From a virus (lineage: Duplodnaviria > Heunggongvirae > Uroviricota > Caudoviricetes), in the IMG/VR virus record IMGVR_UViG_2529292871_000019: DNA of 4,114 nucleotides. One strand, given 5' to 3'. The notes beneath the pieces are model-generated. The model was given only the letters and a program-made list of their open reading frames with translations. It was not told the DNA's origin and searched no databases. Below are positions 1-4,114 of the stretch, piece by piece. The first letter of the stretch is position 1. Each line of letters begins with the position of its first letter. Made by a program: the position numbers and the translations under genes.

Positions 1-341
1 GTAAATCTTCACACCCAGCCGTCCACCAGATACTGGCTGACCACGTACAATATTGATTTCATCAAACTGCTCATCGTCCATTAACACTCCCGCATGCGTC
101 AGCGCATCCAGCGGTGCTTTCAGAATATTGTCCAGGTCACGACGACGCTTATCCGGTGGCTCTGCAATAATTTTTATGCCAGCCGTCCGGACAGGCTTAA
201 TTTCAGTCGCTGCTGGCGAACAATAAGCACCACTGCCCGGCGATAACGCTCCCCGGCTTTTGATACAAAATATGTGCTGCCACGGCGTCGCCAGTAAGTG
301 TTCACCGTCGGCGGGTAAGGTAAAACCAAATCTATGAGCAT
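1..341 (-). pseudogene. rusA: rusA-like Holliday junction resolvase, frameshifted and 3'-truncated by the window edge
   Basis: Minus-strand ATG at 341 preceded by GAGGTG; N-terminus MLIDLVLPYPPTVNTYWRRRGSTYF has the RusA-type LPxPPxxN motif and ends at TAA 174-176. The C-terminal part IKIIAEPPDKRRRDLDNILKAPLDALTHAGVLMDDEQF...GGRLGVKIY continues in a different frame from about 180 to position 1. The frame switch coincides with a T5/A5 run at 171-175. Confidence 0.6.
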
Positions 342-353
342 CAGTCACCTCTT

Positions 354-611
354 TTACCCGAGCACGCCAGTCGCAAAGGCGTGATCAAGAAAACGAAAAA
401 TTAAATCAACCTGGGAACCATGCTTTTCTTCGAACGCCAGCGGATCCGCATGAAGCTCGTTGTGATGCTCCCGACACAGCGGTAGCGTGAAAATATCGTG
501 GGATTTTGTTCCCATTCCGCCCTGACCATGACCAATCAGATGATGAGGATCGTCCGCTGGCTTACCACAACACGCACACGGCTGTGTCTTTACCCAGCGT
601 GTGTATTTCTC
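354..611 (-). pseudogene. HNH nuclease-motif segment, apparent C-terminal part of the YdfU/DUF968-like gene, no start codon of its own
   Basis: Same frame as the 630..1397 ORF; translates as EKYTRWVKTQPCACCGKPADDPHHLIGHGQGGMGTKSHDIFTLPLCREHHNELHADPLAFEEKHG... (CxCC, HH, HD and CxxHHxxxH motifs); stop TAA 354-356 is followed 12 nt later by the rusA start with its own SD. Separated from the upstream ORF by TAA 630-632 and TAA 612-614. Confidence 0.5.
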
Positions 612-629
612 TTAACCCAACGGCAACGT

Positions 630-1397
630 TTAGGCCGCCTCATGAACGATTCGGTGACTCCGGATCAACGGCAATGCTGACCACCGTCTTTTCCTGTGGC
701 GGGTTTGCTGGTGGGCGTGAGGCAGCGGCGCAAGATTTTTTGTGCGCTGCTTCAGTATGCTGGTGGCTGTCTGTTCTCCCGGTACGATGTCACTCTCACG
801 GTATACGGAGCGGATTTTTTCCGCTGGTAATCCCAGCGAACGACGCGCTACTGCCTCAGGTAGTGCATCCACCACCTGATTGCAGGCCGCCCACCAGGAT
901 AATTCAGCCAGCGATAATTCACGCTCCTGTGTGCCATTCATTGCGTGACGAATGACGTCAATCATCCATGCTGACAAGTTTTGGTGAGCAAGTTGCTCAA
1001 GTGATTCGGAGGTCTGGTCACGCAACTGGTTGTCGCAGTGCCAGCACAACACCATTGCGCCGGTACCATAACGGTGAATGACGGTTTCACTGTGGTGATA
1101 ATCGCCGTGTGGCCACTGGCAGGATTTAACATGGCGCAGTAACCAGTCAGACAATGCGCCAGCGCCACCAGCAGCACGAATCACTCGTTCGTCGCTGAAA
1201 AATGGCAGTAATGATTTATCCTCCGCCAGCGGCTGGCGAACGGCAGGAACGACCCCGGACGGCAGATTACGCATGCTTTTCGGTTCCGGCTCCACCAGTA
1301 CCCGGGTATTGTGGAATACCGGCATGGATTCACGGCCCGGCTTAACGATCACCAGCCCGAGTTCCGGTACCAGAACAGGTCGAAGTAATACCCGCAC
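630..1397 (-). CDS. YdfU/DUF968-like prophage protein, N-terminal 255-aa ORF as it stands
   Basis: 255-aa ORF in the track. Start is GTG at 1397 (plus 1395-1397 is cac) with GGAGGT 5 nt upstream, overlapping the stop of the rem-like gene, which suggests translational coupling. Family assignment rests on synteny (downstream of hok and rem, upstream of rusA) and recalled length of about 349 aa for the full reading frame 354..1397. Confidence 0.6.
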   Translation of the reverse strand: MRVLLRPVLVPELGLVIVKPGRESMPVFHNTRVLVEPEPKSMRNLPSGVVPAVRQPLAEDKSLLPFFSDERVIRAAGGAGALSDWLLRHVKSCQWPHGDYHHSETVIHRYGTGAMVLCWHCDNQLRDQTSESLEQLAHQNLSAWMIDVIRHAMNGTQERELSLAELSWWAACNQVVDALPEAVARRSLGLPAEKIRSVYRESDIVPGEQTATSILKQRTKNLAPLPHAHQQTRHRKRRWSALPLIRSHRIVHEAA

Positions 1398-1398
1398 G

Positions 1399-1677
1399 TT
1401 ACCTCCAGATGCGTTGCTGGAATGTGCGGGACGGACGCGGTGGCCGTTCGGAGTAAGGAAGCCTGACGGAGATTATCCAGTGACGGTAGTCGAGGCTGAG
1501 GGCTTTCTTAATCTCGTATCCGCGCCTGCGGTAACACTGAATCAGCCATTCAGCCTGTTCTTCGGTGCAGGGGTCGTGCTGATACCAGTCAGATTTGAAT
1601 GCATGAGAACGCCGCCCGTGCCTGCTGGCAGGGGCGGCAGAGTTATCCGAATTGTAAAATTTGGTATCGTGCGCCAT
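1399..1677 (-). CDS. small prophage protein, rem-like by position immediately downstream of hok
   Basis: The 135-aa ORF in the track (1399..1806) contains the hok terminator in its 5' part, so the start is taken as the internal ATG at 1677 (92 aa, MAHDTKFYNSDNSAAP...). Only a weak SD (AGAGAAA); may be expressed by readthrough. Confidence 0.5.
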   Translation of the reverse strand: MAHDTKFYNSDNSAAPASRHGRRSHAFKSDWYQHDPCTEEQAEWLIQCYRRRGYEIKKALSLDYRHWIISVRLPYSERPPRPSRTFQQRIWR

Positions 1678-1749
1678 CTGTTTTCTCTGCTGGCGCAGCA
1701 GGTGCCAGTTGTTCAGGCTGACGGATGGATTGTAAACCAGAACGACCAG

Positions 1750-1774
1750 AAAAAACAAAACCCGCCGAAGCGGG
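1750..1774 (-). terminator. Rho-independent terminator at the 3' end of the hok mRNA
   Basis: Minus strand reads CCCGC-UUCG-GCGGG followed by UUUUGUUUUUU (plus-strand stem 1761-1765/1770-1774, A-run 1750-1760). Confidence 0.8.
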
Positions 1775-1779
1775 TTAAG

Positions 1780-1795
1780 TGCGGGTGCGTTGAGG
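1780..1795 (-). promoter_or_regulatory. fbi-like 3' element of the hok mRNA, complementary to the mRNA 5' end
   Basis: mRNA 3' segment CCUCAACGCACCCGCA can pair with the 5' segment UGCGGGUGCUUGAGG (2158-2172) over 15 bp with one bulge. Confidence 0.65.
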
Positions 1796-1844
1796 ATGCC
1801 TGACACATCAGCGGTGGCGAGGGATTTCTCCCCCGCCTGGTCTC

Positions 1845-2000
1845 TTACTCCTCAGGTTCGTAAGCTGTGAAGACAGCGACCTCCGTCTGGCCGGTTCGGA
1901 TTCGTACCTCGCAGAGGTCTTTCCTCGTTACCAGTGCCGTCACTATGACGGTTAAACAGATGACGATCAGGGCGATTAACATCGCCTTTTGCTGCTTCAT
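1845..2000 (-). CDS. hokD: Hok/Gef-family type I toxin, 51 aa
   Basis: MKQQKAMLIALIVICLTVIVTALVTRKDLCEVRIRTGQTEVAVFTAYEPEE; ATG at 2000 with AGGAGA 7 nt upstream; single transmembrane segment and the conserved Hok C-terminal region. The hokD assignment is from recalled sequence and the adjacent rem-like gene, not from a search. Confidence 0.9.
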   Translation of the reverse strand: MKQQKAMLIALIVICLTVIVTALVTRKDLCEVRIRTGQTEVAVFTAYEPEE

Positions 2001-2057
2001 AACCTGCTTCTCCTTGCCTTTCGGCGCGTAAGAGGCTAACCTACGTTTGTGAAGCAT
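1845..2057 (-). CDS. mok: mok-like upstream reading frame, in frame with hok (70 codons)
   Basis: ATG at 2057 with GAGG 9 nt upstream, 19 codons before the hok ATG and in the same frame; occupies the position of mok in hok/sok loci. Confidence 0.45.
   Translation of the reverse strand: MLHKRRLASYAPKGKEKQVMKQQKAMLIALIVICLTVIVTALVTRKDLCEVRIRTGQTEVAVFTAYEPEE
2014..2042 (+). promoter_or_regulatory. putative sok promoter on the antisense strand inside the mok-hok overlap
   Basis: TTGCCT (2014-2019), 17-bp spacer, TAACCT (2037-2042); same placement as the sok promoter in the plasmid R1 locus as I recall it. Confidence 0.45.
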
Positions 2058-2122
2058 AGATTGGGCCTCAGATTAATGTTAAGCGTCTTGCAGGACGCGT
2101 AATGTTAACTGGGGCTTTTCTC
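2050..2122 (+). ncRNA. sok: Sok-like antisense RNA (antitoxin), ends approximate
   Basis: Antisense to the hok leader and mok start; long imperfect hairpin TTAATGTTAAGCGTC-TTGCAG-GACGCGTAATGTTAA (2073-2108) followed by GGGGCUUUUCUCU (U-run 2116-2123). Confidence 0.5.
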
Positions 2123-2157
2123 TGTCTGCCTTACGGTGGCATGCCCGAGGCAGACAG

Positions 2158-2172
2158 CCTCAAGCACCCGCA
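2158..2172 (-). promoter_or_regulatory. tac-like 5' end of the hok mRNA
   Basis: UGCGGGUGCUUGAGG at the predicted mRNA 5' end, complementary to the fbi-like element at 1780-1795; followed by a leader hairpin with 9-bp stem (2122-2130/2150-2158). Confidence 0.6.
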
Positions 2173-2175
2173 GCA

Positions 2176-2205
2176 ATTCTACTTAACTCTCGCTTTACCG
2201 CAAAC
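2176..2205 (-). promoter_or_regulatory. putative hok promoter
   Basis: Minus-strand -10 TAGAAT (2176-2181) and -35 TTGCGG (2198-2203, 16-bp spacer); predicted start near 2168-2172 gives an mRNA of about 420 nt ending at the terminator. Confidence 0.5.
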
Positions 2206-2214
2206 CGTTTTGCC

Positions 2215-2236
2215 CGATATGGGAATTCCCATATCG
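2215..2236. repeat. 22-bp perfect palindrome CGATATGGGAATTCCCATATCG
   Basis: Exact reverse-complement symmetry read directly from the sequence; lies between the micro-ORF stop (2245) and the hok -35 element. Confidence 0.9.
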
Positions 2237-2244
2237 TAATGAAT

Positions 2245-2349
2245 TCAGTTCCCTAGTCGATCCATCAAAAACACAACCAGGCAGTAAACGCCCACAACAG
2301 CAACAACAGCCAGCGCACCTTCCATTGCCAGTGATATATCATCCGACAT
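2245..2349 (-). CDS. candidate 34-aa hydrophobic membrane micro-protein
   Basis: ATG at 2349 preceded by AAGGAGGG; MSDDISLAMEGALAVVAVVGVYCLVVFLMDRLGN, one predicted transmembrane helix; stop TGA 2245-2247. Below the 60-aa cutoff of the ORF track. Confidence 0.35.
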   Translation of the reverse strand: MSDDISLAMEGALAVVAVVGVYCLVVFLMDRLGN

Positions 2350-2464
2350 ATTCCCTCCTTTGGTGTTAATCCCGGCGAACGTTTTTACCCTCACCGACAA
2401 ATAACATATACTAAAAAAGCGATAGCCATAGCAACGCCTGTAATTGCAAATGCTTCAGGCCAGT

Positions 2465-3334
2465 TCATTGGCGCACCTCCTGCGGCGGTTCTGGTAGAGG
2501 CATCCAGTGTGATGGTATCCACGACGCACCAGGTATTATCCACCCATCATTAGCGTCAGGATGCCCCGGGATGTAAGTCGCCCATTTCATTCGCCAGTCA
2601 CCTTTCCTGCCAAAATCCCTGGCAACAAGAACGGCTGTTTTGGTATCCGGCATTCGCTCACTACAGCTTATCCAACTATCCGGAGTTACCGGATAGTTGC
2701 CCGATAGTGCATTCTGCTCCAGTGATGCTTTTACAAACCACGCTGCCTGAACTATAACGCCATGAATCCAGCGCAAATCAGCATCGCGATCTTTCTTTTT
2801 CATCTTTTCGCCACTTAAGGCCTTGCTTATGTGGCTGCGTGCCAGGTCTTCATGTAATTCCTTCGCCTCCTCAATGGTGAAACCACCAGGCAGAAGAGCC
2901 GGAGTTACCGGAGAGCTGGTTGACGCTTCCGGGATTTTCCGAAAATTATTGGTTGACGAATCTTTATTTTCCCGAAAGTTTCCGGACTGAAACATGGCTT
3001 CGCGGCAATCGTTCCAGCCTGTAGCGTATGCAGCCGCTTTGCTGCTGCCTTCAACTGGCGCATCCTGCCAATACATTTCTTCCGGCACTATCGGCGCTGG
3101 AGGGGCGGCAAATAGATATCCGCCAAAGTCAGGAAGCTCTCTAATGGCCTGTACAAATTTTTGTTTGCCTACGTCAACCCCTAATGGGTAATGAGCTATA
3201 ATCTTTGCCACCGGCTCTGCTTCCAGCGATGCCAGCGCAATCCGTGCCAGTTCCATTTGTTCACCACGGGTAAGCCCGTTTTCAAGCGGATTTTTAATGA
3301 ACAATTCAATACGTTCTTTGGTAATAGTGGTCAT
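2465..3334 (-). CDS. prophage protein with C-terminal DUF551-type domain, 289 aa
   Basis: C-terminus WISCSERMPDTKTAVLVARDFGRKGDWRMKWATYIPGHPDANDGWIIPGASWIPSHWMPLPEPP matches the DUF551 pattern; ATG at 3334 with AAGGAG upstream that overlaps the stop of the 88-aa gene. Confidence 0.85.
   Translation of the reverse strand: MTTITKERIELFIKNPLENGLTRGEQMELARIALASLEAEPVAKIIAHYPLGVDVGKQKFVQAIRELPDFGGYLFAAPPAPIVPEEMYWQDAPVEGSSKAAAYATGWNDCREAMFQSGNFRENKDSSTNNFRKIPEASTSSPVTPALLPGGFTIEEAKELHEDLARSHISKALSGEKMKKKDRDADLRWIHGVIVQAAWFVKASLEQNALSGNYPVTPDSWISCSERMPDTKTAVLVARDFGRKGDWRMKWATYIPGHPDANDGWIIPGASWIPSHWMPLPEPPQEVRQ
2663..2689. repeat. 11-bp perfect inverted repeat CAACTATCCGG-AGTTA-CCGGATAGTTG inside the DUF551 gene
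   Basis: Arms at 2663-2673 and 2679-2689; encodes NYPVTPDSW on the minus strand. Confidence 0.8.
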
Positions 3335-3344
3335 GTGTTACTCC

Positions 3345-3608
3345 TTAACCCGCAGTGCTTTCAACTGATGAGGGGAACAAAATCTTTTCATCAAACCCTG
3401 CATTCATATCATGAACAGCAACACACCAATCCATCGACGAACGATTATCAAGAGCCTCCATGATTTCATCCATGCGGCGTAGGTCATACAGGTAAATGCT
3501 TTTATCGCCAATGGTGTAAAAGCCAATTTTTTTCGGTGATGGACAGCGATCAAGAACTTCCTGTAATTCGTTCAACCATGCCCGTTCTTTTTTTGTCAAA
3601 GTTGCCAT
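3345..3608 (-). CDS. small prophage protein of unknown function, 87 aa
   Basis: Start taken as the internal ATG at 3608 (MATLTKKERAWLNELQEVL...) because it has AAGGAAAA upstream; the track ORF start at 3698 has no RBS. Stop TAA 3345-3347 overlaps the SD of the DUF551 gene. Confidence 0.7.
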   Translation of the reverse strand: MATLTKKERAWLNELQEVLDRCPSPKKIGFYTIGDKSIYLYDLRRMDEIMEALDNRSSMDWCVAVHDMNAGFDEKILFPSSVESTAG

Positions 3609-3757
3609 ATCAGTTTTCCTTATACGGATTAATTTTATTGTGCAGTGTGTTGAATGACGCCCATACCACGTCGTTATACAATTCAATAACTGGCTCAATT
3701 ATTTTTCCGATTATCCATACTAGGATTAACGGGGATATCGGTATCATCAACACGATA

Positions 3758-3784
3758 AACAGAATGAGAAACAGAAATTCTGTT
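3758..3784. repeat. heptamer cluster: AACAGAA twice direct plus one inverted copy in an AT-rich intergenic region
   Basis: AACAGAA at 3758-3764 and 3770-3776, TTCTGTT at 3778-3784; the last two form the palindrome AACAGAAATTCTGTT. Confidence 0.6.
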
Positions 3785-3833
3785 GTTCTACTCTTTCGCG
3801 GATATTTTTTCTAAATAATGTGACCATTCATTA

Positions 3834-3850
3834 CCGCCCTTTCGGGCGGC
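3834..3850 (-). terminator. GC hairpin just after the 70-aa gene stop, possible weak terminator
   Basis: Minus strand GCCGCCC-GAAA-GGGCGG about 10 nt after the stop at 3860-3862, but followed by UAAUGAAUGG rather than a U-tract. Confidence 0.25.
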
Positions 3851-3859
3851 CTCCTGACA

Positions 3860-4072
3860 TTAATCGTTGTGATAACTCATAGCTTCATTTGCAGCATCAA
3901 CTGGATTAACCTCCCACCAGCAATAATTTGGTTCGCCCCCTTCAGGCGTCCATGGTTCTAATTCATTTTTTGCCACATTCTCGTCGCCAGTGATTTTAAG
4001 AATCTGCTCAGAAAATTTTTTCACCCACTCGTTATATTTTTCCGCGTTAATGTTTTTTTGTGTATTTAACAT
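3860..4072 (-). CDS. small prophage protein of unknown function, 70 aa
   Basis: ATG at 4072 with GGAGGAG 5 nt upstream; MLNTQKNINAEKYNEWVKKFSEQILKITGDENVAKNELEPWTPEGGEPNYCWWEVNPVDAANEAMSYHND. Confidence 0.7.
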   Translation of the reverse strand: MLNTQKNINAEKYNEWVKKFSEQILKITGDENVAKNELEPWTPEGGEPNYCWWEVNPVDAANEAMSYHND

Positions 4073-4114
4073 AGATACTCCTCCGGTTAAGGATTAAATT
4101 TTATTTACAGTGCT

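What the first reader, a model, noticed from the sequence alone, without database searches (positions are those of the whole stretch)
1..341. rusA-like resolvase gene frameshifted at a homopolymer run
The RusA N-terminal and C-terminal motifs are in different frames, and the switch falls at the T5/A5 run at 171-175, where the first frame hits TAA. This is either a real inactivating slip in a cryptic prophage or a homopolymer sequencing error. Together with the YdfU-like disruption, it suggests the recombination and nuclease genes have decayed while the hok locus stayed intact.
Basis: seen in the sequence. Interest (0 to 1): 0.4.

Follow-up and report, generated by a model that had tools for sequence, protein, structure and literature searches.

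The report
rusA frameshift is an assembly artefact
The broken rusA gene is a one-base error in a short, chimeric contig of an old draft genome; the finished genome of the same E. coli strain has the gene intact, so this is an ordinary prophage Holliday-junction resolvase.

Summary
On the minus strand of 1-341, the N-terminal and C-terminal halves of a RusA resolvase lie in different frames, and the first frame stops at TAA (176-174). The cause is one missing base. It is not in the T5 run at 171-175, which has the same length as in intact alleles. It is in the adjacent TT, which reads T at 177/178. The window is the whole 4114-bp contig AEUB01000140.1 from the draft genome of E. coli O55:H7 str. 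USDA 5905. The finished genome of that strain (NZ_CP039837.1) shows the contig joins two lambdoid prophages. Positions 656-4114 follow the prophage at 3.48 Mb; within that span, 2240-4114 match at 100.0%. Positions 1-650 follow the prophage at 3.185 Mb with no substitutions and two one-base deletions, at 178 and 611. One base is also lost at the join (651/652). Both rusA copies are annotated intact in the finished genome. Adding one A back reproduces the first 342 nt of the 3.185-Mb copy exactly. The frameshift allele occurs in none of 2518 matching complete E. coli records, nor in the genome, viral or metagenome collections. Verdict: a sequencing or assembly artefact in a collapsed prophage repeat, not gene decay. 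Interest is very low.

The parts
1..341 (-). rusA (RusA-family Holliday-junction resolvase). It is the allele of the USDA 5905 prophage at 3.185 Mb ('copy B'), minus one base, and is truncated by the contig end (last 18 nt missing).
   Evidence: adding one A back makes the 342 nt identical to the start of the 360-nt intact gene L001:4361-4720.
177..178 (.). Site of the missing base. The intact copies have TT on the + strand here (minus strand GCAATA in copy B, GCGATA in copy A). The window has a single T (minus strand GCATA).
174..176 (-). Premature TAA that ends the 55-aa N-terminal frame. It is created by the lost base.
171..175 (.). T5 run (A5 on the coding strand). It has the same length as in intact alleles and is not the site of the indel.
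1..650 (-). Part of the contig that follows prophage copy B (NZ_CP039837.1, about 3.185 Mb). Over 650 nt it has 0 substitutions and two one-base deletions, at 178 and 611.
   Evidence: blastn 1-650 against L001: 0 mismatches, 2 gaps
651..652 (.). Chimeric join between copy A and copy B, with one base lost. Copy A reads CACCGGCTCAG, copy B reads CTCCTGAATCG, and the window reads CACCGAATCG.
354..1397 (-). DUF968 (YdfU-like) gene. Its 5' part follows copy A and its 3' part follows copy B. It is disrupted by contig-private one-base losses at 707 (A4 to A3), 651/652 (the join) and 611.
656..2240 (-). hok to DUF968 segment, a repeat with 7 places in the finished genome. The window is a mixed consensus here: 26 discriminating sites are A-type and 4 are B-type (2212 twice, 2002, 982).
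2240..4114 (-). Segment that matches prophage copy A (NZ_CP039837.1 3483039-3484913) at 100.0%. The next best genome reaches 98.7%.

Best explanation
The frameshift is not a feature of the organism. The window is a short contig of the draft genome of E. coli O55:H7 str. USDA 5905. It lies in a region that occurs several times in that genome, in different lambdoid prophages. The assembler built a chimeric consensus. It starts in the prophage at 3.48 Mb, runs through the shared hok-DUF968 repeat, and ends in the rusA of the prophage at 3.185 Mb. Single bases were dropped along the way, including one A of the GCA-ATA codon pair in rusA. In the real genome this rusA is a continuous 119-codon gene. 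It encodes an ordinary RusA-family Holliday-junction resolvase with the catalytic Asp/Asp/Lys/Asp set, and it sits between a DUF968 gene and a DUF1133 gene in the late-regulatory region of the prophage.

Shown by tool results: the strain identity, the chimerism, the absence of the deletion from the finished genome and from every other genome searched, and the exact restoration by one base. Inferred: that the base was lost during base-calling or consensus building. I recall the draft being 454/Newbler data but could not verify that here.
For: Source of the window. The 255-aa truncated DUF968 product of the window exists on exactly one contig, AEUB01000140.1 (4114 bp), of GCA_000187365.2. NCBI names it ECO5905_23051 [Escherichia coli O55:H7 str. 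USDA 5905].

Same strain, finished genome. Window 2240-4114 matches NZ_CP039837.1 (USDA5905) at 100.0% over 1875 nt, and the next best genome reaches 98.7%. Window 656-4114 against that prophage shows 3 mismatches and 2 gaps in 3459 nt. Window 1-650 against the other prophage shows 0 mismatches and 2 one-base gaps. The switch at 651/652 loses a base.

Intact genes. Both rusA genes (WP_000904166.1, WP_000140023.1) and both DUF968 genes carry no pseudogene flag in the finished genome. Adding one A back gives exact identity to the first 342 nt of the copy B gene.

Allele frequency. None of the 2518 matching complete E. coli records has the 81-nt stretch without a gap; the best is 98.8%. That set includes every copy in USDA5905 itself. 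An exact 43-mer spanning the deletion has 0 matches in genome contigs, viral contigs and metagenome contigs. The companion deletion at 611 is likewise in none of 623 records.

Distribution of discrepancies. All 8 differences from the finished genome fall in the 2239 nt that are repeated or B-derived. None falls in the 1875 nt specific to copy A (Fisher p about 0.009).

Literature. O157/O55 drafts are known to break up inside near-identical lambdoid prophages (PMC7175801).
Against: No reads were available, so the error was not observed directly. The draft and the finished genome could come from different laboratory stocks, so a stock-specific mutation cannot be formally excluded. The lost base is in a 2-mer, and the one at 611 is in a 1-mer. 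Neither is in a long homopolymer, so they are not the most typical pyrosequencing errors. The sequencing platform of the draft could not be verified, because the genome announcement (Rump et al. 2011, J Bacteriol 193:2058) is not in the held library.
Confidence: 0.93

Rival explanations
1. A real, very recent one-base deletion inactivated this rusA copy in the particular USDA 5905 culture used for the draft. It is absent from the culture used for the finished genome.
For: Only that the draft sequence says so. Prophage accessory genes with several redundant copies can be lost without cost. At least 2 rusA copies were read in this genome, and the 700-nt query found 4 places in it.
Against: This would require four independent one-base losses within 530 nt (178, 611, 651/652, 707) with no substitutions. 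It would also require a prophage A/B hybrid that is missing from the finished genome. The allele is in none of 2518 records and in no public contig collection. The discrepancies are confined to the repeated part of the contig.
Confidence: 0.04
2. The contig reflects a true recombinant prophage, formed by A x B exchange inside the DUF968 gene and present in the draft culture. Its genes then began to decay.
For: Lambdoid prophages do recombine in homologous modules. The contig switches parent inside a gene that both copies share.
Against: Homologous exchange does not remove a base at the crossover, yet the join is one base short. Around the join the two parents share only about 25 nt of similarity followed by strong divergence. 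No place in the finished genome carries such a hybrid: the best place for window 1-700 is copy B at 98.7%. Scattered B-type sites inside the A-type part (2212, 2002, 982) look like a mixed consensus rather than a single crossover.
Confidence: 0.02
3. Programmed -1 ribosomal frameshifting produces full-length RusA from the two frames.
For: The C-terminal frame is open over the whole 348 nt, and an A-rich stretch lies at the shift point.
Against: The shift would have to occur on CUG-GCA before UAA, where there is no X XXY YYZ slippery heptamer (by inspection). Every homologue examined, 3400 places in 2518 records, has the extra base, and the rusA copies whose annotation was read are single continuous ORFs. 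There is therefore no conservation of a recoding site.
Confidence: 0.005

Closest known systems
E. coli RusA (DLP12 prophage; PDB 1Q8R, 2H8C/2H8E) and the RusA family PF05866
   Same: The intact copy B protein (119 aa) aligns to 1Q8R over residues 5-116 at E=3.5e-21. The PDRRRRDLDN motif, the Lys and the DD motif are conserved; these correspond to D70, D72, K76 and D91 of E. coli RusA (residue roles from my knowledge of Bolt et al. 1999 and Rafferty et al. 2003). It has the same small size and the same position near the late-gene regulator of a lambdoid prophage.
   Different: Nothing of substance. It is a different allele, with roughly 45-50% identical residues by eye in the alignment. Its upstream neighbour is a DUF968/YdfU gene rather than the DLP12 neighbours.
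RusA WP_000904166.1 of the E. coli O55:H7 USDA5905 finished genome (NZ_CP039837.1 3184931-3185290)
   Same: Identical nucleotide for nucleotide to the window's gene once the missing A is restored.
   Different: The window lacks one base and the last 18 nt.
Collapsed or chimeric prophage contigs in draft EHEC/EPEC assemblies
   Same: A short contig in a region present in several near-identical lambdoid prophages, with a mixed consensus and private indels. The general problem is described in PMC7175801.
   Different: No difference in kind.

Membership tests
RusA Holliday-junction resolvase (Pfam PF05866) | Match to the RusA profile above the gathering score (22.8 bits) over the full domain | tested here: met
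   As the window is written, the N-terminal fragment scores 19.3 bits (below the cut-off) and the C-terminal fragment scores 36.1 bits.
RusA Holliday-junction resolvase (Pfam PF05866) | Catalytic acidic residues and lysine (E. coli RusA D70, D72, K76, D91) | tested here: met
   alignment to 1Q8R. RRRDLDN, K and DD are conserved. All of them lie downstream of the shift point, which falls at codon 55/56.
RusA Holliday-junction resolvase (Pfam PF05866) | A single continuous ORF of about 120 codons | tested here: met
   This is not met in the window as written. It is met in the finished genome of the same strain, where the CDS is 360 nt and is not flagged as a pseudogene.
RusA Holliday-junction resolvase (Pfam PF05866) | Cleavage of Holliday junctions | not testable with these tools
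   This is a biochemical property and is inferred from homology only.
Genuine frameshift pseudogene (prophage decay) | The lesion is reproduced in an independent assembly of the same strain | tested here: not met
   No copy in NZ_CP039837.1 carries it.
Genuine frameshift pseudogene (prophage decay) | The lesion is shared by related strains or present in other public sequences | tested here: not met
   None of 2518 complete-genome records has it. Genome, viral and metagenome contigs give 0 matches. The single 55-aa 'hit' (L002) is an intact allele cut off by a contig end.
Genuine frameshift pseudogene (prophage decay) | Support from reads at the site | not testable with these tools
   No reads were available.
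Assembly artefact (chimeric or collapsed repeat contig) | The contig switches between paralogous copies of one genome | tested here: met
   Positions 656-4114 follow copy A and 1-650 follow copy B. The join is one base short.
Assembly artefact (chimeric or collapsed repeat contig) | Discrepancies are concentrated in the repeated part of the contig | tested here: met
   There are 8 discrepancies in 2239 nt of repeated or B-derived sequence and 0 in 1875 nt specific to copy A, p about 0.009. The repeat has 7 places in the genome.
Programmed ribosomal frameshift | A slippery site, and conservation of the two-frame arrangement in homologues | tested here: not met
   there is no slippery heptamer before the UAA; all homologues examined have the extra base.

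The most novel reading that the evidence does not exclude
The one-base deletion and the A/B hybrid prophage were really present in the USDA 5905 culture sequenced for the draft. That would be a very recent prophage-prophage recombination followed by rapid loss of one redundant rusA copy and one DUF968 copy during laboratory storage.
Probability: 0.04. Interest if true: 0.12.

Novelty: not a real feature. Interest (0 to 1): 0.03.

Why it matters
It matters only as a caution. Short contigs from early draft assemblies of prophage-rich E. coli can be chimeras of paralogous prophages with private indels. Apparent pseudogenes on such contigs, here rusA and the YdfU-like gene, should not be read as gene decay. 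The GenBank annotation of this contig carries the error forward: RusA is called as a 116-aa partial protein whose first 57 or so residues are out of frame. The underlying biology is a standard lambdoid-prophage RusA resolvase present in several intact copies.

Tried and rejected
Exact look-up of the 55-aa N-terminal product gave one contig (L002, 230 bp). Reading it showed the intact allele (…GGCTGGCAAT) cut off by the contig end, so it is not a second occurrence of the frameshift.

I considered that the deletion arose from flow-space averaging of reads from the two paralogues (CAAT plus CGAT giving CAT, and CTGA plus CGGA giving CGA). For site 178 this needs close to a 50:50 read mix. In that case the neighbouring discriminating sites (172, 185, 196) should also be mixed, but they are all B-type. 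The idea is therefore not supported over a simple under-call. The event at 652/653 turned out to be the chimeric join itself.

I tried to locate the other rusA and DUF968 copies of USDA5905 by querying with the RM12579 allele. USDA5905 was not among the listed rows, so the remaining copies were not read. One search already excludes the frameshift allele from all of them.

Literature look-ups for AEUB00000000, AEUB01000000 and the genome announcement (DOI 10.1128/JB.00118-11, PMC3133052) found nothing held. The strain identity was obtained instead from NCBI's protein name. The sequencing platform remains my unverified recollection.

The phage collection holds only relatives at 90% identity or less over half the window, and none with the allele.

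Full report
**What is in the sequence.** The gene lies on the minus strand. From ATG 341-339, one frame reads MLIDLVLPYPPTVNTYWRRRGSTYFVSKAGERYRRAVVLIVRQQRLKLSLSGRLA and stops at TAA (176-174). The frame one base back reads …GIKIIAEPPDKRRRDLDNILKAPLDALTHAGVLMDDEQFDEINIVRGQPVSGGRLGVKIY and runs off the window at position 1. Both pieces match Pfam RusA (PF05866). The N-terminal piece covers profile positions 1-50 (E=0.0018) and the C-terminal piece covers positions 76-123 (E=1.2e-8). Joined, they cover positions 1-123 of 124 at E=4.3e-16.

**Where the lesion is.** I aligned the window to the closest intact allele, L001, from the complete genome of E. coli O55:H7 USDA5905. From the rusA start codon to the end of the window there are no substitutions and one gap. 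The intact allele reads GGCTGGCAATAAAAATT and the window reads GGCTGGC-ATAAAAATT. On the + strand the window is CAATAATTTTTATGCCAGCCG and the intact copy is CAATAATTTTTATTGCCAGCCG. The T5 run at 171-175 is unchanged. The lost base is one T of the TT at 177/178. Three further relatives also have a base there, a G on the coding strand. Putting one A back makes the 342 nt identical to the first 342 nt of the 360-nt intact gene. The contig end removes the last 18 nt (KIESE plus the stop).

**How common the allele is.** An 81-nt query centred on the deletion found 2518 complete-genome E. coli records (3400 places). None matched at 99% or better, and the best was 98.8%, which corresponds to the one gap. 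An exact 43-mer across the deletion has no match in the species-representative genomes, the viral contigs or the metagenome contigs. The exact 55-aa product is on record for one 230-bp contig only. On reading, that contig ends in …GGCTGGCAAT, so it is the intact allele truncated by a contig end. The frameshift allele is private to this window.

**Where the window comes from.** The window's truncated 255-aa DUF968 product is on record for exactly one contig, AEUB01000140.1. That contig is 4114 bp, the same length as the window, and belongs to assembly GCA_000187365.2. NCBI names the protein ECO5905_23051 [Escherichia coli O55:H7 str. USDA 5905]. The neighbouring accession prefixes AETY, AETZ and AEUA belong to the same set of early drafts of 'stepwise model' strains. 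From memory, this is the project of Rump et al. 2011 and was sequenced on 454. The paper is not in the held library, so the platform is unverified.

**Comparison with the finished genome of the same strain.** NZ_CP039837.1 is the complete chromosome of USDA5905. Window 2240-4114 matches it at 100.0% over 1875 nt at 3,483,039-3,484,913 ('copy A', L017). Every other genome is at 98.7% or lower. A three-way alignment of the window, copy A and the prophage at 3.185 Mb ('copy B', L001) gives the following picture.
- Positions 656-4114 follow copy A, with 3 mismatches and 2 gaps in 3459 nt.
- Positions 1-650 follow copy B, with 0 mismatches and two one-base gaps, at 178 and 611.
- The switch is at 651/652. 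Copy A reads CACCGGCTCAG, copy B reads CTCCTGAATCG, and the window reads CACCGAATCG, which is one base short of either parent.
- At 707 an A4 run in copy A is A3 in the window.
- In the shared hok-DUF968 stretch (656-2240), which has 7 places in that genome, the window is A-type at 26 discriminating sites and B-type at 4 (2212 twice, 2002, 982). No complete genome matches this stretch better than 99.7%.
- All 8 discrepancies lie in the 2239 nt that are repeated or B-derived. None lies in the 1875 nt specific to copy A (Fisher p about 0.009).
- The deletion at 611 is also absent from all 623 matching records.

**What is really there.** In the finished genome both prophages carry rusA and DUF968 genes with no pseudogene flag. 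Copy B has DUF968 (1050 nt) and RusA WP_000904166.1 (360 nt), followed by a DUF1133 gene. Copy A has DUF968 (1056 nt) and RusA WP_000140023.1 (366 nt). Copy B RusA aligns to the crystal-structure sequence of E. coli RusA (1Q8R) at E=3.5e-21 over residues 5-116. The residues equivalent to D70, D72, K76 and D91 are conserved (their catalytic roles are from my knowledge of the RusA literature). All of them lie downstream of codon 55/56, so a real frameshift would have inactivated the enzyme. It is not real. The gene is an ordinary lambdoid-prophage Holliday-junction resolvase.

**Interpretation.** The most economical reading is a chimeric, collapsed-repeat contig with dropped bases. O157/O55 draft assemblies are known to break up and misbehave within their near-identical lambdoid prophages (PMC7175801). 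The rival readings each need several coincidences:
- A stock-specific real mutation requires four one-base losses in 530 nt with no substitutions, plus a hybrid prophage missing from the finished genome.
- A real A x B recombinant would not lose a base at the crossover.
- Programmed frameshifting has no slippery site and no conservation.

I tested one specific artefact mechanism, flow-space averaging of paralogous reads. It does not explain site 178 better than a plain under-call of AA, because the neighbouring discriminating sites are all B-type.

**Verdict.** The 'sequencing error' alternative is supported and the 'gene decay while hok stays intact' inference is not. The frameshift is not a real feature, and the underlying gene is already known. 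Reads were not available, so a small residual probability (about 5-7%) remains that some of the lesions were real in the sequenced culture. Mapping the public reads of USDA 5905, or a single PCR with Sanger sequencing, would settle it.

Noticed in passing
window 3805-3810 (T6 on the + strand, A6 on the coding minus strand), in the DUF4014 gene at about 3610-3827: This is a reproducible homopolymer-length frameshift. The run is A6 in the window, in the finished USDA5905 genome (annotated 'frameshifted') and in 6 other fetched genomes. It is A7 in RM12579, where the 72-aa DUF4014 ORF is intact. It is A5 in strain 14EC007, also annotated 'frameshifted'. The window therefore does hold a genuine homopolymer frameshift, but in a different gene.
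   Followed up: partly
The three losses sum to 3 nt, so the start and stop codons are in the same frame, with a stop at 630-632 in between. Both parental genes are intact in the finished genome.
   Followed up: yes
L006 3767-4114 (= window 1-348, minus strand): The draft's own annotation calls RusA as a 116-aa partial CDS in the C-terminal frame, which happens to be open over the whole 348 nt. The first 57 or so residues of that database protein are out-of-frame sequence.
   Followed up: no
window 2465-3334 (minus strand); L017 6781-7650: A continuous 289-aa DUF551 ORF is recorded with exactly this sequence in 3836 blocks of the collection. In the finished USDA5905 genome, PGAP annotates it as three separate partial or pseudo features, although the DNA is 100% identical.
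   Followed up: no
window 1845-2057 (minus strand), mok/hok (HokD-type) locus; site 2002: The hok reading frame is intact. The base just upstream of the hok ATG (window 2002) carries the copy B allele inside otherwise copy-A-type sequence. It is one of the mixed-consensus sites.
   Followed up: partly
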